Translations under genes and position numbers: made by a program
DNA from: Clostridiales bacterium
Lineage (GTDB): Bacteria > Bacillota > Clostridia > Christensenellales > UBA1242
Assembly (NCBI GenBank): GCA_015069385.1
Contig: SVIS01000001.1
Coordinates: 17,127 to 81,126, forward strand
Direction of reading: 5' to 3'
DNA: 64,000 nucleotides
In this document: positions 38,002 to 44,986 of the stretch, piece after piece
Position numbering within the stretch: position 1 is the stretch's first letter
Layout of the letters: each line of letters starts with the position of its first letter
Notes under the pieces: generated by a model
Database searches by the model: none
Told to the model about the DNA's origin: nothing
The model's input: only the letters and a program-made list of their open reading frames with translations

Positions 38002-39357
38002 TTAAAATTTAATTGTATAAACTATACATCTTCCATTTTCACAATCTTTTGTTTCAATATCAATTATTGGAAGATTATGTTCTAATTCTTCTAAAGTAAC
38101 AGTTTTATTATCAGAAATTTCTTCCAAGTTTGATTCTATTTGTTTATCTACAAACTGGTCTTCTGAATCATTGTCATTGTGAATAGGCTTACTATTTTTC
38201 TCTATATTTGATTCATCATTTTTTTCTAGCAAAGGTTTTGGTCTTGGATATGGTCTAGGCAATGGCTCTGGTCGATCATTCCAAGTATTTATTATCTCAT
38301 CATTTTGCTGTTCATCATTGATATTGATTTGTTCTTTATCCAAATCTTTACGTGAACGATAAGTATCAACATTCTTGTATGTTCCAAAAGAATTTATATT
38401 AGGGTAGATATAGCCTTGCCTAAATGGCATCATACCGTAACCATACATATTTCCAGCATATCCCATAGGTCCATAACCTCCCATACCGTAACCATTATAT
38501 CCATAATTATTCATACCGTATTGATTAGCATAGTCCATACCATAGCCTGGGTTATAATTACGTAAATAATTATCCTTGTTATACACCGGATTATTTCTTA
38601 TATCACCATATATATTTGTTCCGGCATTTTCATAAGTATCTATATTTTTCATAATCCCTGTTTTTTGTATATCATTATCAATAGTCTTATATTCTTTACA
38701 TAAAACATTTTCTATATTTTGCAAACTACTCATAATACTTGAATAATAAGTTAACCTTGTATTTAAACCTGTTTGCAATTTTAAATATTTAAAATTCAAT
38801 TGTTCTGGTTTTGAACTATATTCATCTTTTAAACTTTGAACACTCTTGTAATAATTAGAAATTTCATTACGTGTTAAACTAATTCGAGTATTATTTGCCA
38901 TAATAGAACTATTTAATTCATTTAAAGTATTTATTTGTTCATCAGACAAGTTAGTATTATCATCAATATTTTGTTTGCATAATTCTTTTATTTGAGTACT
39001 TTTTGCATATATTTGTTTTTTTGTATTATTAAGTGAATCATTCAAGTTTATTGTAGCTAAAATATTGTTGTTTAACATAGTTAATTTAGTTATATAAGCA
39101 TTCATTGAAGTATTTTCTAACAGGTTTATAGTCTCAATATCTATATCAGTTAAATCATTTGCGTCCATAAAATCGCTTAGAAATAACGTTGAATTATCAA
39201 TATTTTGTACCTTGTCTAATGTATTAGTAATTTTCGACATGTTATTTGATATCATGCTAAGAGTAGTATTAGAATTATTTTCTGTACACCCCATTATAAA
39301 AATAGCACAAAAGATAAAACTTGAAATAATTAATACTTTTATTATTTTATTTTTCAT
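38002..39357 (-). CDS. Putative lipoprotein with an Asn-rich helical region and a Tyr/Gly/Met-rich low-complexity segment
   Basis: 451 aa. A signal peptide is followed by a lipobox (FIMGC). The segment GYGMDYANQYGMNNYGYNGYGMGGYGPMGYAGNMYGYGMMPF is encoded at about 38425-38555 by repeated CATACCGTAACCA units. A Pro-rich PEPLPRPYPRPKP stretch is also present. No family was recognised. Confidence 0.6.
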   Translation of the reverse strand: MKNKIIKVLIISSFIFCAIFIMGCTENNSNTTLSMISNNMSKITNTLDKVQNIDNSTLFLSDFMDANDLTDIDIETINLLENTSMNAYITKLTMLNNNILATINLNDSLNNTKKQIYAKSTQIKELCKQNIDDNTNLSDEQINTLNELNSSIMANNTRISLTRNEISNYYKSVQSLKDEYSSKPEQLNFKYLKLQTGLNTRLTYYSSIMSSLQNIENVLCKEYKTIDNDIQKTGIMKNIDTYENAGTNIYGDIRNNPVYNKDNYLRNYNPGYGMDYANQYGMNNYGYNGYGMGGYGPMGYAGNMYGYGMMPFRQGYIYPNINSFGTYKNVDTYRSRKDLDKEQININDEQQNDEIINTWNDRPEPLPRPYPRPKPLLEKNDESNIEKNSKPIHNDNDSEDQFVDKQIESNLEEISDNKTVTLEELEHNLPIIDIETKDCENGRCIVYTIKF

Positions 39358-41389: not shown

Positions 41390-42064
41390 ATGAAAAATAA
41401 AACAAATAAAAGTTTTATTAAAAGATTAAAACGCAAGATATTAATATGTCTTGCGGTTTTATCTTGTTTAATAGTTACTATTATATGTTATTTAAACTAT
41501 GTAGTTAATCCTGTTATTATTTCTACAAGTGCTGCTAAAGTTCGTTCGCTAAGCCAAAGAGCAGTTGAAAATGTTGTTAGGCAAGTAATACACGAAAATG
41601 TGATGTATGATACATTAGTGCTTATAATGAGAGATGAAAGCGGAAAGATAGTAACAATAAGTTCGAACTCAGCAACAATTAATATGCTTGCGTTAGAAGT
41701 TACCGAAAAAGCCCAAAACGCATTATCTCAAATGGGTGCAAATGGAATTGATATTCCTATTGGCTCTTTTAGTGGCATGCCAATTTTTACGGGTAGAGGT
41801 CCAGCTGTAAATATCAAAATGCTACCAATTGGAACGATATTTTGCAAATTTGAATCAACCTTTACAGAAGCAGGAATTAACCAAACAAATCATAGAATTT
41901 ATTTAAAAGTATACTCATCAGTTAGTGTAATTTTACCAACAGCAAATCAAACTATACAAACGGAAACTCAGTTAATGATTTGTGAAAGCATTATTGTAGG
42001 TGAAATACCTGATACATATTTACATTCAGATAGTCTTGATGAAATGATGAACTTAATTCCATAA
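41390..42064 (+). CDS. yunB: Sporulation protein YunB
   Basis: 224 aa with an N-terminal TM helix. The segment IPIGSFSGMPIFTGRGPAVNIKMLPIG...GINQTNHRIYLKV...VGEIP aligns with the B. subtilis YunB pattern. Confidence 0.75.
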   Translation: MKNKTNKSFIKRLKRKILICLAVLSCLIVTIICYLNYVVNPVIISTSAAKVRSLSQRAVENVVRQVIHENVMYDTLVLIMRDESGKIVTISSNSATINMLALEVTEKAQNALSQMGANGIDIPIGSFSGMPIFTGRGPAVNIKMLPIGTIFCKFESTFTEAGINQTNHRIYLKVYSSVSVILPTANQTIQTETQLMICESIIVGEIPDTYLHSDSLDEMMNLIP

Positions 42065-42146: not shown

Positions 42147-42180
42147 ATTTATTCGCAAAATACAGGTTTTGCGAATAAAT
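42147..42180. other. dif-like recombination site candidate, left copy: perfect 14-bp inverted arms around a 6-bp asymmetric core
   Basis: ATTTATTCGCAAAA-TACAGG-TTTTGCGAATAAAT. The first 17 bp are repeated exactly at 43201-43217. Confidence 0.5.
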
Positions 42181-42200: not shown

Positions 42201-43139
42201 TTATTGTATTTTTAATATATTAACAAACTTTATTGCCATTTCATATTTAATTGTATTAAGGGGTTCTTTAAATAAAGAAATGTTTGTATTACAAATACTT
42301 TTTTTATTTTGCATAGTACTATTTTTTAAATAATTTATTATGTTTATAGTTGTAATTGTTTCATCTTGAGCAAAAAGTTCATTTGGACAATCAAATAATA
42401 AAGACTCAATAAAAATTTGATTTGGTTTTTGCTGAAAAAGATTCCAATATAAATTATTAAAAATTTTAATTTGTTGCTTAAAATAGCCTTGAGTTTTTAT
42501 ATCTTTAATTTCTATATTATCAAAACGTTCATAAAAATCAATTATTATCTTTTTAGAAGTGCTTGTATTATATAAACAAAAAGAATTCGTATCTGTTATA
42601 AATACAGGATAAATATTAATATCTACTCCAAACTCTTCTTTGCCAACAATACTAATTTTTTTTGTATCAATATATAATTTAGATTCTTTATATAATAACT
42701 TTGTTAATTCTGAGAATAAATCATAAAGCAAAACCTCTATATCATAATCTTGTAAATTTAAAACTTTTTTATTAGTTTGCTTTATAACCTGCTCACCTTT
42801 TTTCTTTCTCGATGAAAATAGTTTAAAATTAGCTTTAAAATAGTTCCAATATTGTATTAAATTATTTTTAAATTTACTATGTCTTTTGTTTACAAAATTT
42901 AACTCAATTTGCGGAGCATCAACTAGCAAAAATAAATCTAATGAAGAATTAAAATATTCTACTCCAGTAAATACTTCATTTGCAACGTATAGTTCATAGT
43001 TTATAATATAAGGATTTCTCTGTTTGATTGTATTTATAACTTCATCAATATACTGAGAAATAACATTATATGCATGATTAAATGCATTTAAATTAGTATC
43101 TTTTGAAAATTCTTTAATTAAACTTTTCATCATATTCAT
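42201..43139 (-). CDS. Hypothetical protein with weak minimal-nucleotidyltransferase (Pol-beta / SMODS-like) features
   Basis: 312 aa. FTGVEYFNSSLDLFLLVD sits at the G-S...D-x-D position but is degenerate. GVDINIYPVF fits a third-carboxylate strand. IFIESLLFDCPNELF resembles the helix that follows the NTase core in SMODS-type proteins. The assignment rests on motif resemblance only. Confidence 0.45.
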   Translation of the reverse strand: MNMMKSLIKEFSKDTNLNAFNHAYNVISQYIDEVINTIKQRNPYIINYELYVANEVFTGVEYFNSSLDLFLLVDAPQIELNFVNKRHSKFKNNLIQYWNYFKANFKLFSSRKKKGEQVIKQTNKKVLNLQDYDIEVLLYDLFSELTKLLYKESKLYIDTKKISIVGKEEFGVDINIYPVFITDTNSFCLYNTSTSKKIIIDFYERFDNIEIKDIKTQGYFKQQIKIFNNLYWNLFQQKPNQIFIESLLFDCPNELFAQDETITTINIINYLKNSTMQNKKSICNTNISLFKEPLNTIKYEMAIKFVNILKIQ

Positions 43140-43197
43140 ACTTATATTCTACAATTAGTCAAATAATTTTGTAAAGCAAATTTATTATCAAAAATAA

Positions 43198-43226
43198 TTG
43201 ATTTATTCGCAAAATACTAATATAAT
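43198..43226 (+). promoter_or_regulatory. Promoter of the recombinase gene, with the dif-like arm in its spacer
   Basis: TTGATT (43198-43203), 17 nt, TATAAT (43221-43226). The ATG at 43233 lies 7 nt after the -10 and has no SD, which implies a leaderless mRNA. Confidence 0.55.
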
Positions 43227-43234
43227 ATTGATAT
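43201..43234. other. dif-like site candidate, right copy: conserved left arm with a degenerate right arm
   Basis: ATTTATTCGCAAAA-TACTAA-TATAATATTGATAT, immediately upstream of and overlapping the recombinase start. Confidence 0.45.
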
Positions 43235-44261
43235 GAGTAATTATTTTTTTGAACGAAATAAAAAAAGCAATGAAAAACTACGACAAATTGTAAATACATT
43301 ACCCGATTTTACTATTGATTATTTTATTGGAATAGAACAAAATACTTCACCACTTACACGACTTAACTATGCAACCGATTTAGCCATTTTTTTCTATTTT
43401 CTAAGCGGAGAAATCTTGCATAAACCAATAAAATCTATTAATTTATATGACTTGAATAATATAAGATCTCGTGATATCGAATTATTTTTAAGTTTTGTTA
43501 CCAATTTTAGCAAAGATGGTATTGAATATCAAAATGGCGAGCGAGGCAAGGCAAGAAAATTATCTGCTATTAAATCACTTTTTAAATATTTGTATAAAAA
43601 CGACTATATTTCACAAGATGAAACAAGTAAAGTTAAATCACCTAAAATTCATTCTAAGCCCATTATACATTTAGATGCTAATGAAGTTTCAAAACTATTA
43701 AATGAATCTGAAAACCCAACCGAACTTAACAATCGTGAGATGGCTTTTAATAAAATTACATGTATAAGAGATACTGCTCTTTTAAGTTTGTTTCTTGGTA
43801 CAGGAATTCGTGTTAGTGAATGCGTTGGATTAAATGTTAAAGATATTGATTTCGAAAATAATGCATTTAAAATAACTAGAAAAGGTGGCAACCAAACAAT
43901 TTTATATTTTAGCGAAGAAGTAAGTGCACCACTAAAAGCATGGCTAGAAGAACGCAGTTTTTGGCTTAAAGACAAAGAACAAGAAACAGCCTTGTTTATA
44001 TCGCTTCAAAAAAAACGAATTAGTGTAAGGGCTGTTGAAAAATTAGTTAAAAAATATAGTTTAACTGCCTCTCCTTTAAAAAAAATCACCCCACATAAAC
44101 TAAGAAGTACATATGGTACTTCTTTATATCAAGAAACTGGTGATATTTACATAGTGGCTGAAGTTCTTGGTCATAAAGATGTTAACACTACAAAAAAACA
44201 CTATGCTTCAATTAGCGAAGATATAAAACGTTCTGTAGTTAATAAAGTAAAATTAAGATAA
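43233..44261 (+). CDS. Tyrosine site-specific recombinase, XerS-like single-recombinase Xer type
   Basis: 342 aa. Contains the N-terminal SAM-like domain (TRLNYATDLAIFFYFL, LSAIKSLFKYLY), then GIRVSECVGL, TRKGGNQ, and HKLRSTYGTSLY...LGHKDVNTTKKHY with the catalytic Tyr. Confidence 0.8.
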   Translation: MSNYFFERNKKSNEKLRQIVNTLPDFTIDYFIGIEQNTSPLTRLNYATDLAIFFYFLSGEILHKPIKSINLYDLNNIRSRDIELFLSFVTNFSKDGIEYQNGERGKARKLSAIKSLFKYLYKNDYISQDETSKVKSPKIHSKPIIHLDANEVSKLLNESENPTELNNREMAFNKITCIRDTALLSLFLGTGIRVSECVGLNVKDIDFENNAFKITRKGGNQTILYFSEEVSAPLKAWLEERSFWLKDKEQETALFISLQKKRISVRAVEKLVKKYSLTASPLKKITPHKLRSTYGTSLYQETGDIYIVAEVLGHKDVNTTKKHYASISEDIKRSVVNKVKLR

Positions 44262-44289
44262 AAAAAGCATACAATGTATGCTTTTTTTA
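44261..44289. terminator. Bidirectional intrinsic terminator
   Basis: Hairpin AGCATAC / GTATGCT flanked by A6 and T7, between convergent genes. Confidence 0.8.
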
Positions 44290-44856
44290 ATTTTCACCTA
44301 ATTCATTTTTTATGCTTTCTATACGCTCTACTACTTTTTTCATTTCAAGTTTTCTGTTTAACTCATCTAATTGCTTTTTTAACATAAGTTCATCATCATA
44401 ATTAGGTACTTCAGCAATGGGATCAATTGTTATTGTTGTGCTTTTATATAACTTTGTTAATTTAAAACTAACTACAAACATTATAAGTGATAACACATGA
44501 CTAACAAGCAAAATACCAATTGTTAAGTAATAACCAATATCAAGTATGAATTTAGTATAGTAAACAACAAATATTCCTGCAATTATTGCTGAAAATGTAA
44601 TGAACAATAACAAAAATAAATACTTAGCCAATCCAAATAAATTTTTAATCTTTTTTGTTTTTGAAAGTATAGTAAACAAGTAACTTAAAAGTAATAATTC
44701 TTCTGTCAACAAAGCTATATTCAGCCATAAAATACCAGTTTGTTGAATTAAATTATTTATACTATAGTAACAAACCCAAGCAATTGCGGCTAAAATAAAC
44801 AATGTTAATGCCTTATATACCGCAGATAAAATTTGTTTTTTTTGCTTATTATCCAT
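44287..44856 (-). CDS. Hypothetical multi-pass membrane protein with a C-terminal coiled coil
   Basis: About 189 aa with 5 hydrophobic helices and the tail DELMLKKQLDELNRKLEMKKVVERIESIKNELGEN. No family was recognised. Confidence 0.5.
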   Translation of the reverse strand: MDNKQKKQILSAVYKALTLFILAAIAWVCYYSINNLIQQTGILWLNIALLTEELLLLSYLFTILSKTKKIKNLFGLAKYLFLLLFITFSAIIAGIFVVYYTKFILDIGYYLTIGILLVSHVLSLIMFVVSFKLTKLYKSTTITIDPIAEVPNYDDELMLKKQLDELNRKLEMKKVVERIESIKNELGEN

Positions 44857-44986
44857 AACCCACCCCACTAATTAATTTTATTATACAATATATATATTGC
44901 TTTGTCAAATCTTGTAGATTTAAATATGTACACACTCATTTTAAATTTGTTTGCTCTTTTTATAAAACATGTTATACTTAGTTCAT

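What the first reader, a model, noticed from the sequence alone, without database searches (positions are those of the whole stretch)
42201..43139. Orphan cargo gene with degenerate nucleotidyltransferase-like motifs
Seen in sequence:
- The only ORF between the two dif-like sites encodes 312 aa.
- It has a G-x-...-S-S-L-D-L-F-L-L-V-D segment where minimal NTases carry G-S...D-x-D.
- It has a VDINIYP strand that could supply the third carboxylate.
- It has an ESLLFDCPNELF segment reminiscent of the helix following the catalytic core in SMODS / CD-NTase-like proteins.

Inference: it may be a divergent, possibly catalytically altered, nucleotidyltransferase. That would make it a candidate defence or signalling gene carried on a mobile cassette. 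The resemblance is weak and was judged by eye only.
Basis: inference. Interest (0 to 1): 0.55.

Follow-up and report, generated by a model that had tools for sequence, protein, structure and literature searches.

The report
Dead cGAS-like protein beside chromosomal dif
The gene encodes a cGAS/CD-NTase-fold protein that has lost its catalytic residues, and it is not mobile cargo: uncultured Clostridia inherit it vertically between the Xer recombinase gene and the chromosome's dif site at the replication terminus, an association I found no report of.

Summary

**Fold and active site**
- The AlphaFold model (pLDDT 87) matches CdnE-type CD-NTases (Foldseek E 7e-10).
- Profile-profile comparison with canonical CD-NTases gives 99.4% probability.
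- The active site is gone across the family: GS is N54-E55 (55/55 sequences), DxD is [S/T]-x-D68, and the third Asp is N175.
- A Lys-rich segment with a 26-column insertion (net +11; canonical relatives 0) defines the family.

**Context**
- The "mobile defence cargo" reading fails. There is no effector gene nearby, no defence neighbours, and no plasmid or phage homologues.
- 30 of 31 related loci have a divergent XerS-like recombinase gene upstream.
- 29 of 32 have a perfect 28-bp palindrome (TATTCGCAAAA-N6-TTTTGCGAATA; here 42150-42177) within 700 bp downstream.
- That palindrome sits at the cumulative GC-skew maximum, so it is the chromosomal dif.
- The second "dif-like site" is one half-site inside the predicted xer promoter.
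- Xer proteins from genomes with the gene fall in a single clade, which argues for vertical inheritance.

**Best reading (inferred):** a non-catalytic, DNA- or Xer-binding accessory of the Xer/dif module. Its function is untested.

The parts
42201..43139 (-). 312-aa catalytically degenerate CD-NTase-fold protein, the subject of the finding
   Evidence: ORF. AF2 model pLDDT 87, pTM 0.80. Foldseek top hit CdnE, E 7e-10. hhalign 99.35% against canonical CD-NTases. 49 homologues, none carrying a functional name.
42936..42980 (-). Degenerate N-terminal catalytic region, N54-E55 ... S65-S66-L67-D68. N54-E55 replace the G-S motif and S66-x-D68 replaces D-x-D.
   Evidence: Translation. Alignments. Column counts: N 55/55, E 55/55, first Asp position acidic in 1/55, second position D/E in 54/55.
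42615..42617 (-). N175 codon, at the position of the third catalytic Asp of CD-NTases (the strand 'INIYPVF' aligns to 'aDVvPaf')
   Evidence: HMMER alignment to EmCdnE 'ITADVIPCF'. hhalign. N in 49/55 core sequences and acidic in 0/55; D/E in 13/13 canonical relatives. D173 is not conserved.
42750..42887 (-). Lys/Arg-rich helical segment (aa 85-130; 13 K/R against 1 D/E). It contains a family-specific insertion of about 26 columns relative to canonical CD-NTases. Proposed nucleic-acid-binding surface (inference).
   Evidence: Translation. Charge count. Gap of 26 columns in hhalign. Segment aa 80-131: median 51 aa and net +11 in the core family, against 20 aa and net 0 in canonical relatives. 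Lower pLDDT of 58-69.
42372..42425 (-). PNQIFIESLLFDCPNELF, the conserved C-terminal-domain helix shared with CD-NTases ('APSYFIECLLYNVPN')
   Evidence: Translation. Alignments to 6E0K. PF26305 CD_NTase_C is precomputed for homologues.
42150..42177 (.). 28-bp perfect palindrome TATTCGCAAAA-TACAGG-TTTTGCGAATA (11-6-11; arms extend to 14 bp, 42147-42180). Candidate chromosomal dif site, 24 bp after the stop codon of the gene.
   Evidence: Sequence. Found within 700 bp downstream of the gene in 29/32 loci. At least 120 metagenome contigs carry the site, and it commonly lies immediately upstream of a Xer ortholog. It lies within about 200 bp of the cumulative G-C maximum (1-kb bin ending at 42,000). 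It also scores as terminator-like on the minus strand.
43204..43214 (+). Single Xer half-site TATTCGCAAAA inside the 17-bp spacer of the predicted xer promoter. Proposed autoregulatory operator.
   Evidence: Exact match. Conserved as TTGATT-TATTCGCAAAA-N6-TAnAAT in all clade-A loci. Absent in L007 and in several other lineages.
43198..43226 (+). Predicted xer promoter, TTGATT-17-TATAAT, ending 6 nt before the ATG (leaderless transcript predicted)
   Evidence: Consensus scan. Conserved in clade A. Weak on its own in this AT-rich DNA.
43146..43175 (-). Predicted promoter of the CD-NTase-like gene, TTTACA-18-TAGAAT, ending 6 nt before the ATG
   Evidence: Consensus scan. The TTTACA element ('tgtaaag' on the plus strand) is conserved in clade A.
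43233..44261 (+). XerS-like tyrosine recombinase, transcribed divergently from the gene
   Evidence: Pfam Phage_integrase 2.8e-35. NCBIfam XerS 2e-59 (201 bits, below the cutoff of 267), XerC 9e-51, XerA 1e-48, XerD 2e-46. Orthologue upstream of the gene in 30/31 loci.
41390..42064 (+). yunB (sporulation gene), convergent with the gene across the dif site. A neighbour in clade A only, not part of the module.
   Evidence: Pfam Spore_YunB 5e-30. Absent from clade-B and more distant loci.

Best explanation
**Shown.**
- The ORF encodes a protein with the two-lobed cGAS/DncV-like (CD-NTase, CdnE-type) fold.
- Four of the five catalytic-motif positions are replaced. GS is N54-E55, the first Asp of DxD is Ser/Thr, and the third Asp is N175. 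Only D68 is kept.
- The family carries a strongly basic helical insertion that canonical enzymes lack.
- The gene is a vertically inherited chromosomal gene of a clade of uncultured Clostridia.
- It is fixed between the gene for a single XerS-like tyrosine recombinase and a perfect 28-bp palindromic site. That site lies at the GC-skew switch, so it is the chromosome's dif at the replication terminus.

**Inferred.**
- The protein no longer makes a nucleotide signal.
- It works as a non-enzymatic accessory of the Xer/dif module. It would bind DNA through the Lys-rich insertion, the recombinase, or both.
- Its role would be to modulate when or in which direction Xer recombines at dif, or to limit use of dif by integrating elements.
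- In this lineage both divergent genes share an intergenic region carrying one Xer half-site inside the predicted xer promoter, so Xer probably controls its own expression and possibly that of this gene.
For: **Fold and homology**
- AF2 model: pLDDT 87, pTM 0.80.
- Foldseek against the PDB: 59 hits at E<=1e-3; those listed are CdnE, CdnD, CdnC, CdnB, CdnG, DncV and MiD51, best 6E0K at 7e-10.
- Family profile against 6E0K: 4.5e-11.
- hhalign against 13 canonical relatives: 99.35%, E 5e-21.

**Loss of the catalytic set**
- Column counts in 55 core and 56 extended family members, against 13 canonical relatives; motif table.

**Basic insertion**
- Net +11 in the family against 0 in canonical relatives, while the rest of the protein is net -7.

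**Linkage to xer and dif**
- A divergent xer gene lies upstream in 30/31 loci that have enough flank.
- dif lies within 700 bp of the stop codon in 29/32 loci.
- This includes picks chosen without regard to context from the representative search: P0095, P0142, P0148 and P0110 lie next to xer, and P0058 (short contig) has dif 35 bp past its stop.
- It also includes very distant relatives recovered from the dif scan: L208, L104, L102.

**The palindrome is dif**
- 11-6-11 architecture.
- It sits 2-400 bp upstream of Xer orthologues in many genomes that lack this gene.
- Cumulative G-C peaks at 42,000, and gene orientation flips there.
- An ssDNA-phage Rep gene abuts the site in L168.
- The arm resembles the left arm of difSL, and xerS-difSL is known to form a single module (PMC5357621).

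**Vertical inheritance and maintenance**
- All 31 Xer proteins from gene-bearing loci fall in one clade of 33 leaves.
- There are no plasmid or phage homologues.
- ORFs are intact and of conserved length across at least 100 clusters.
- Apparent dN/dS is 0.15-0.45.
Against: - No experiment or interaction prediction links the protein to Xer function. The link is gene neighbourhood only.
- Most genomes with the same dif and Xer type lack the gene, so it cannot be a core requirement of the system.
- In many lineages serS lies between xer and the gene and overlaps its start. That weakens a strict xer-gene regulatory unit.
- One locus (L023) has the gene with neither xer nor dif nearby.
- N54, E55 and D68 are invariant or nearly so. 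A remodelled active site rather than a dead one is therefore not excluded.
- Lys-rich segments are common in proteins of 28%-GC genomes.
- The protein evolves 2-2.5 times faster (dN) than xer or yunB.
Confidence: 0.45

Rival explanations
1. Historical hitchhiker. An ancestral CBASS-type cyclase gene landed next to dif, possibly on an element that integrated by Xer recombination (an IMEX). It lost its effector and catalytic residues and has stayed at the terminus by inheritance. Whatever it now does is unrelated to Xer/dif, and the linkage is positional only.
For: - In relatives without the gene, dif lies directly upstream of xer. The gene therefore looks like an insertion between the two.
- A leftover half-site remains on the xer side.
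- dif in these bacteria is used by integrating elements: a phage Rep gene sits next to dif in L168.
- The same palindrome is found on 59 IMG/VR contigs.
- The gene is dispensable for most Xer/dif modules of this type.
- It evolves fast.
- Other lineages have ordinary housekeeping genes between xer and dif.
Against: - The gene keeps its position while the flanks change (yunB, YgjP, Peptidase_U32 and others).
- It does so over a depth at which its own sequence falls to profile E-values of 1e-8 to 1e-15.
- The ORF stays intact with family-specific invariant residues (N54, E55, QIELN) and a conserved basic insertion, so it is under selection.
- Long-term synteny is unusual without functional coupling (general knowledge).
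Confidence: 0.27
2. Still an enzyme. A remodelled active site built from the invariant N54-E55, D68 and perhaps E79 catalyses nucleotidyl transfer or makes a nucleotide signal. That signal could be tied to terminus events, division or sporulation.
For: - N54 and E55 are invariant in 55/55 core sequences, and the second Asp position (D68) is acidic in 54/55.
- Q77, E79 and N81 are invariant or nearly so.
- The nucleotide-pocket helix 'FIESLLYNxP' is retained.
Against: - The extended family does not conserve any of these positions. D68 is replaced by K, T, V, N or I in a number of members, and the third Asp position holds N, I, R, K, L and others.
- The same Asp-to-Asn change at this position is what depositors used for a DncV crystal form (4U0M 'mutant D193N' appears among the hits). 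That this mutant is inactive is my own recollection.
- No receptor or effector gene is nearby.
Confidence: 0.15
3. One reading: an orphan defence or signalling nucleotidyltransferase carried as cargo on a cassette that Xer can currently mobilise between two dif-like sites.
For: - Weak matches to CBASS cyclase models and to the NCBIfam anti-phage NTase model.
- The gene lies between two sequences that share the Xer arm.
Against: - The catalytic motif is degenerate.
- There is no effector gene and no defence neighbours.
- The location is fixed across a whole clade.
- There are no plasmid or phage copies.
- The second site is a half-site with no right arm.
- The spacers of the two sites differ (TACAGG against TACTAA here; unrelated in L005).
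- In L007, and by script in L208, L102, L214, L211 and L216, no xer-side half-site was found.
Confidence: 0.03
4. A partner of seryl-tRNA synthetase or of tRNA metabolism, for example a pseudo-nucleotidyltransferase acting on tRNA. This is suggested by translational coupling with serS in many lineages.
For: - serS lies immediately upstream, and its stop overlaps the gene's start in L211 and L214. serS also lies upstream throughout clade B.
- A basic surface could bind RNA as well as DNA.
Against: - Clade A (including this window), L216, L215, L208 and L104 have no serS at the locus.
- xer and serS are also neighbours in a genome that lacks the gene (L168).
Confidence: 0.05

Closest known systems
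CdnE-clade CD-NTases of CBASS (e.g. Rhodothermus marinus CdnE, PDB 6E0K; Elizabethkingia CdnE, 6E0M; Legionella CdnE, 7X4F)
   Same: - Same two-lobed fold (Foldseek E 7e-10 to 1e-8, TM about 0.6).
- Detectable sequence homology over about 270 columns.
- Shared motifs: Y..F..D..L, RIFxN and FIE(C/S)LLYN(V/C)PN.
   Different: - GS is replaced by N-E, DxD by [S/T]-x-D, and the third Asp by Asn.
- A basic insertion of about 26 columns is present.
- No effector gene is adjacent and the gene is not in a defence island.
- The gene has a fixed position between xer and dif.
- It scores far below curated family cutoffs: NF053871 24.9 against 350 bits, and no Pfam hit.
MiD51/MiD49 (eukaryotic pseudo-nucleotidyltransferase adaptors; PDB 4NXU and others)
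   Same: - NTase fold kept as a scaffold without transferase chemistry (their adaptor role is from my own knowledge).
- They appear among the structural matches (E about 1e-4).
   Different: - Eukaryotic mitochondrial-fission adaptors.
- No specific sequence relationship.
- The analogy concerns how it might work (a scaffold), not membership.
XerS/difSL single-recombinase module of streptococci and lactococci
   Same: - The recombinase's best NCBIfam match is XerS.
- The half-site TATTCGCAAAA resembles the difSL left arm TTTCCGAAAA.
- In streptococci xerS sits next to its site as one module (PMC5357621). Most relatives found here have the same arrangement.
   Different: - The site here is a perfect 11-6-11 palindrome, whereas difSL is asymmetric, 31 bp long, and has an 11-bp centre (PMC5357621).
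- The recombinase scores below the XerS equivalog cutoff.
- An extra gene, this ORF, lies between xer and dif.
Accessory and activation factors of Xer recombination (PepA/ArgR/ArcA at cer and psi; FtsK-gamma; XafT of the TLC satellite phage)
   Same: There is precedent that Xer reactions are steered by non-recombinase proteins that bind DNA or the recombinase. PepA, ArgR, ArcA and FtsK are covered in PMC5357621. XafT is from my own knowledge.
   Different: - None of them has an NTase fold.
- None is known to be encoded between xer and dif.
- A role of this protein in Xer recombination is inferred from gene neighbourhood only.
IMEX elements and pdif modules (genes flanked by Xer sites)
   Same: - The gene lies between two sequences that share a Xer-binding arm.
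- dif in related bacteria is probably used by integrating ssDNA phages.
   Different: - Only one complete site is present.
- The gene is fixed and vertically inherited.
- It is absent from plasmids and phages.

Membership tests
CD-NTase / CBASS cyclase | Pol-beta-like NTase core plus C-terminal helical lobe (cGAS/DncV-like fold) | tested here: met
   AF2 pLDDT 87. Foldseek top hit CdnE 7e-10, prob 1.0. hhalign 99.35%.
CD-NTase / CBASS cyclase | G-S motif before the first catalytic strand | tested here: not met
   N54-E55 in 55/55 core sequences. G-S in 13/13 canonical relatives.
CD-NTase / CBASS cyclase | [DE]-x-[DE] metal-binding pair | tested here: not met
   S66-L67-D68. The first position is acidic in 1/55 core sequences; the second is kept in 54/55.
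CD-NTase / CBASS cyclase | Third catalytic Asp on the 'hDhhP' strand | tested here: not met
   N175. N in 49/55 core sequences and acidic in 0/55. D/E in 13/13 canonical relatives.
CD-NTase / CBASS cyclase | Operon with a signal-activated effector (Cap) gene | tested here: not met
   Neighbours are yunB, xer, a 193-aa membrane protein and an SDR. There are no meaningful PADLOC hits in ten neighbours. In other lineages the neighbours are serS, YgjP and Peptidase_U32.
CD-NTase / CBASS cyclase | Scores above curated family thresholds | tested here: not met
   NCBIfam NF053871 24.9 bits against a cutoff of 350. No Pfam family at E<=1. PF26305 is only 'weak' for some homologues.
CD-NTase / CBASS cyclase | Synthesis of a cyclic oligonucleotide | not testable with these tools
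   Requires a biochemical assay.
IMEX / pdif-type mobile module | Flanked by two complete Xer recombination sites | tested here: not met
   There is one full 11-6-11 site (42150-42177). The other (43204-43214) is a single arm, followed by promoter sequence that matches 3/11 to an arm. In L007 no xer-side half-site exists.
IMEX / pdif-type mobile module | Variable presence or varied genomic contexts; occurrence on plasmids or phages | tested here: not met
   Same slot in 30/31 loci. One Xer clade. No tblastn hit in 72,556 plasmids or 50,697 phage records.
Xer/dif chromosome dimer resolution module (the context, not the ORF itself) | Xer-type tyrosine recombinase | tested here: met
   Phage_integrase 2.8e-35. 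XerS 2e-59, XerC 9e-51, XerA 1e-48, XerD 2e-46. All are below the equivalog cutoffs.
Xer/dif chromosome dimer resolution module (the context, not the ORF itself) | 28-bp site with two 11-bp inverted arms and a 6-8-bp centre | tested here: met
   TATTCGCAAAA-N6-TTTTGCGAATA. The arm sequences are conserved, with changes matched on both arms (TATGCGTAAAA / TTTTACGCATA), while the spacer varies.
Xer/dif chromosome dimer resolution module (the context, not the ORF itself) | Located at the replication terminus (GC-skew switch) | tested here: met
   Cumulative G-C maximum at 42,000. Genes are mostly on the plus strand before it and on the minus strand after it. Tested in this window only.
Xer/dif chromosome dimer resolution module (the context, not the ORF itself) | Recombination at the site by the recombinase | not testable with these tools
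   Requires in vitro or in vivo recombination assays.
Pseudo-NTase scaffold proteins (MiD51-like; an analogy) | NTase fold with the catalytic set lost but under selection | tested here: met
   ORFs of about 310 aa are intact across at least 100 clusters. Apparent dN/dS is below 0.5, with dS saturated.

The most novel reading that the evidence does not exclude
This family is a dedicated accessory subunit of a single-recombinase Xer/dif system. It would be a cGAS-like fold that lost catalysis and was recruited, through a new basic DNA-binding insertion, to control chromosome dimer resolution at the terminus, or to guard dif against ssDNA phages that integrate by exploiting Xer. As far as I know, that would be the first NTase-fold protein tied to Xer recombination. 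It would also be an example of a bacterial immune-enzyme fold re-used in chromosome maintenance.
Probability: 0.3. Interest if true: 0.8.

Novelty: new variant of a known kind. Interest (0 to 1): 0.62.

Why it matters
CD-NTases are known as the signal-producing enzymes of CBASS anti-phage defence and as the bacterial relatives of cGAS. This family keeps the fold, has lost the chemistry, gained a basic insertion, and is locked next to the chromosome's dif site and its recombinase across a whole clade of gut and rumen Clostridia.

If the linkage is functional, three things follow:
- It adds a new kind of accessory factor to Xer recombination. How single-recombinase systems are controlled is still poorly understood.
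- It shows how an immune-enzyme scaffold can be re-purposed.
- It defines a widespread XerS-like module with a perfectly palindromic dif in Clostridia. This module seems also to be a target of integrating ssDNA phages.

If the linkage is only historical, the gene is still a clean natural example of a long-lived pseudo-enzyme derived from a defence gene.

Either way, the practical lesson for annotation is that weak "cyclase" or "anti-phage NTase" hits at this locus should not be read as a defence system.

Tried and rejected
- **Single-sequence library scans.** Pfam and PHROGs found nothing for the ORF. Pfam scans of four homologues gave only noise.
- **Mobile cassette.** Rejected after the synteny, plasmid/phage and Xer-tree tests.
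- **The xer-dif interval as a hotspot for varied cargo.** Rejected. In other lineages the interval holds ordinary housekeeping genes, by sequence a TtcA-like PP-loop ATPase, Dtd, an esterase, a permease and serS.
- **The palindrome as merely the gene's terminator.** It does score as terminator-like. But its sequence, not just its pairing, is conserved. It also occurs upstream of xer in genomes without the gene, and separate terminators exist in L001 and L005.
- **Recombination between the two sites.** The spacers do not match in L001 or L005, so this is unlikely.
- **dN/dS.** dS is saturated (above 1) in all pairs. Only relative dN and a rough ratio below 1 can be used.
- **Fused NT-like + linker + Xer AlphaFold run.** 25 paired sequences were prepared but not submitted.
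- **Literature.** Searches for CD-NTase with Xer, dif or tyrosine recombinase returned nothing relevant.
- **Second profile search for named or cultured members.** All 63 hits are unnamed or 'hypothetical' proteins, with no isolate named among them.
- **Locus L023.** The one exception was examined: IscS-ThiI lie upstream, with no xer, no dif, no RNA gene and no N runs. It remains unexplained.
Full report
**1. Observation**

The ORF at 42201..43139 on the minus strand encodes 312 aa.

The two "dif-like sites" exist. A perfect palindrome, TATTCGCAAAA-TACAGG-TTTTGCGAATA, lies at 42150-42177, with arms that extend to 14 bp. It starts 24 bp after the stop codon. One more copy of the same 11-mer lies at 43204-43214, just before the start of the neighbouring recombinase gene. 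These are the only three exact copies in the window. The second site has no right arm: what follows the 11-mer is TACTAA-TATAAT.

**2. What the protein is**

Single-sequence searches were weak but consistent.
- Pfam and PHROGs found nothing.
- PADLOC "oligonucleotide cyclase" models hit at 1e-7 and 1e-5, over the C-terminal half only.
- An NCBIfam anti-phage NTase model scored 24.9 bits against a cutoff of 350.
- RmCdnE (6E0K) hit at E 0.019.

Profiles settle the question.
- An alignment of 31 homologues (A1) hits RmCdnE at 4.5e-11.
- Against an alignment of 13 canonical relatives recovered in the representative search, it gives hhalign probability 99.35% and E 5e-21 over 272 columns, nearly end to end.
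- The AlphaFold2 model is confident (pLDDT 87, pTM 0.80).
- Its best PDB matches are all CD-NTases: CdnE 7e-10 to 1e-8 with TM about 0.6, then CdnD, DncV, CdnB, CdnC and CdnG, and also the pseudo-NTase MiD51.

**3. The active site is not conserved**

hhalign, MAFFT and HMMER agree on the mapping.
- Canonical G-S aligns to N54-E55.
- D-x-D aligns to S66-L67-D68.
- The third Asp, on the 'aDVvP' strand, aligns to N175 of 'INIYP'.

Column counts are as follows.

| Position | 55 core sequences | 13 canonical relatives |
|---|---|---|
| G | N 55/55 | G 13/13 |
| S | E 55/55 | S 13/13 |
| First Asp | acidic 1/55 (mostly S or T) | D 10/13 |
| Second Asp | D/E 54/55 | D/E 13/13 |
| Third Asp | N 49/55, acidic 0/55 | D/E 13/13 |

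In 56 more distant family members these positions drift further, with I, K, R and L at the third Asp position and several losses of the second Asp.

The family also has a segment (aa 80-131) with a median length of 51 residues and net charge +11. Canonical relatives have 20 residues and net 0 there. The rest of the protein is net -7. hhalign shows a 26-column insertion at this point, and its pLDDT is lower (58-69).

I read this as a pseudo-enzyme with a new basic surface. The invariance of N54, E55 and D68 keeps a remodelled active site formally possible.

**4. Context: not a cassette but the chromosome terminus**

Every homologue with usable flanks sits in the same arrangement.
- Clade A (40-55% identity to the window protein) has spoVA-yunB, then the palindrome, then the gene, then a divergent recombinase gene.
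- Clade B (29-33% identity) and still more distant members have different outer neighbours. They keep xer (divergent), then serS, then the gene, then the palindrome.
- I took five representatives from the profile search without regard to context. Four lie beside a Xer gene: P0095 and P0142 with serS between, and P0148 and P0110 directly. The fifth, P0058, is on a 1.6-kb contig; its upstream ORF was not identified, and the palindrome lies 35 bp past its stop.

Across 36 distinct genes:
- 30 of the 31 with at least 3 kb upstream have a divergent xer. L005 is a script artefact, and xer is present there.
- 29 of the 32 with at least 700 bp downstream have the palindrome within 700 bp.
- The exception is L023.

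In the window, cumulative G-C peaks at 42,000. Gene orientation changes from mostly plus before that point to essentially all minus beyond 45.8 kb. The palindrome therefore sits at the replication terminus.

**5. The palindrome is the dif of a widespread XerS-like module**

- The recombinase's best family match is XerS (2e-59), below the equivalog cutoff, followed by XerC, XerA and XerD.
- In many of these a Xer orthologue (E 1e-90 to 1e-119) starts 40-400 bp from the palindrome, with its promoter in between and no CD-NTase-like gene.
- This is the "recombinase gene next to its own site" layout known for xerS-difSL. The arm resembles the difSL left arm (PMC5357621). Here, however, the site is a classical 11-6-11 perfect palindrome.
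- Arm changes are matched on both arms between lineages (TATTCGCAAAA against TATGCGTAAAA), while the spacer varies.
- In L168 a rolling-circle Rep gene of an ssDNA phage (PF23343, 1e-19) ends 25 bp from the site. That is what a phage integrated by Xer recombination would look like.

**6. The second "site"**

In all clade-A loci the xer-proximal copy has the form TTGATT-TATTCGCAAAA-N6-TAnAAT, followed 5-7 nt later by ATG. It is a single Xer arm in the spacer of a sigma-70-like promoter for a leaderless xer transcript. The scan is weak evidence in AT-rich DNA; the conservation is better evidence.

The half-site is absent in L007. By script it is also absent from L208, L102, L214, L211 and L216, and it is present in another arrangement in L104 and L215.

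I interpret it as an operator, which is an inference. It may equally be a relic of the ancestral dif position. The spacers of the two sites do not match in L001 or L005, so excision or inversion of the gene is unlikely.

**7. Evolution**

- A neighbour-joining tree of 66 Xer proteins puts all 31 from gene-bearing loci in one clade of 33 leaves. 33 of the 35 gene-less loci fall outside it (no bootstrap support was computed).
- The branching broadly mirrors how far the CD-NTase-like proteins have diverged.
- This pattern fits one ancient acquisition followed by vertical descent and rare loss.
- The protein changes faster than its neighbours: dN is 0.25-0.57, against 0.11-0.27 for xer and 0.04-0.23 for yunB in the same genome pairs. 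dS is saturated, so the apparent ratio of 0.15-0.45 is only a rough sign of purifying selection.
- There is no homologue in 72,556 plasmids or 50,697 phage records.
- No defence protein is found among ten neighbours.

**8. Mechanism**

*Shown:* the fold, the degenerate catalytic motif, the basic insertion, the tight and ancient linkage to xer and dif, and the terminus location.

*Inferred:* the protein acts without catalysis, as a DNA-binding or recombinase-binding accessory of the Xer/dif module. It might influence timing or directionality, or limit the use of dif by integrating phages.

The main rival is that the linkage is a historical accident of an old insertion next to dif. Weaker rivals are a remodelled enzyme and a serS-related role. 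Nothing here tests the function directly.

**9. Comparison and novelty**

The protein is homologous to CdnE-type CD-NTases but fails four sequence-level and two context-level defining features of CBASS cyclases. I therefore do not file it as a CD-NTase enzyme or as a CBASS system.

It resembles MiD51-type pseudo-NTases in principle only.

I found no paper connecting an NTase-fold protein with Xer/dif. I rate it a new variant of a known kind, with moderately high interest. The interest rests on the unexpected and very consistent association with xer and dif, not on the defence-cargo idea, which the evidence rejects.

Noticed in passing
window 42150-42177 and 43233-44261; loci L032-L151: A XerS-like recombinase paired with a perfectly palindromic 11-6-11 dif (TATTCG[CT]AAAA-N6-TTTT[AG]CGAATA) is widespread in metagenomic Clostridia. 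The site usually lies 40-400 bp upstream of the xer start. My literature searches turned up no description of this module.
   Followed up: partly
L168 3552-4686; IMG/VR loci L152-L210: 59 IMG/VR contigs carry the same palindrome. In L168 a rolling-circle Rep gene of an ssDNA phage (PF23343) ends 25 bp from it. One identical site (TGTGCGCAAAA-CAAGGG-TTTTGCGAATA) recurs in L160, L166, L172, L186 and L191. These are candidate Xer-exploiting (IMEX-type) phages of Clostridia.
   Followed up: partly
window 43146-43232: Both divergent genes (xer and the CD-NTase-like gene) have a -10-like hexamer 6 nt before the ATG and no Shine-Dalgarno sequence. The pattern is conserved in clade A, which suggests leaderless transcripts.
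   Followed up: partly
window 38002-39357 (-): A 451-aa protein with an N/Y/G/M-rich low-complexity region (GYGMNNYGYNGYGMGGYG...) and no Pfam family. A similar-sized gene (436-456 aa) sits in the same position beside the spoVA operon in clade-A loci. Its only hit is a weak coiled-coil-type LmuB match (2e-4).
   Followed up: no
window 44287-44868 (-): A 193-aa protein that looks multi-pass membrane-spanning by eye, with a C-terminal coiled-coil-like tail and no Pfam or PADLOC hit. A 189-190-aa gene sits in the same position downstream of xer in clade A. It is not present at that position in L007.
   Followed up: no
L215 1317-2213; proteins P0140, P0148, P0161, P0163, P0165: A second, separately degenerate CD-NTase-like branch has D-[ED] at the GS position and mostly basic residues (R/K) at the third-Asp position. 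The one member whose context I looked up (P0148, locus L215) also lies next to a Xer gene.
   Followed up: partly
L211 3711-6020; L214 3715-5900; L007 4705-6960: In many lineages serS sits between xer and the CD-NTase-like gene, and its stop overlaps the gene's start, which implies translational coupling. In L007 serS appears split into 358-aa and 89-aa ORFs, either a frameshift or an assembly error.
   Followed up: no
L023 3700-4674: This is the one family member found away from xer and dif. IscS and ThiI lie upstream. The 2.3 kb downstream has no ORF of 100 aa or more and no Rfam match. Unexplained.
   Followed up: partly
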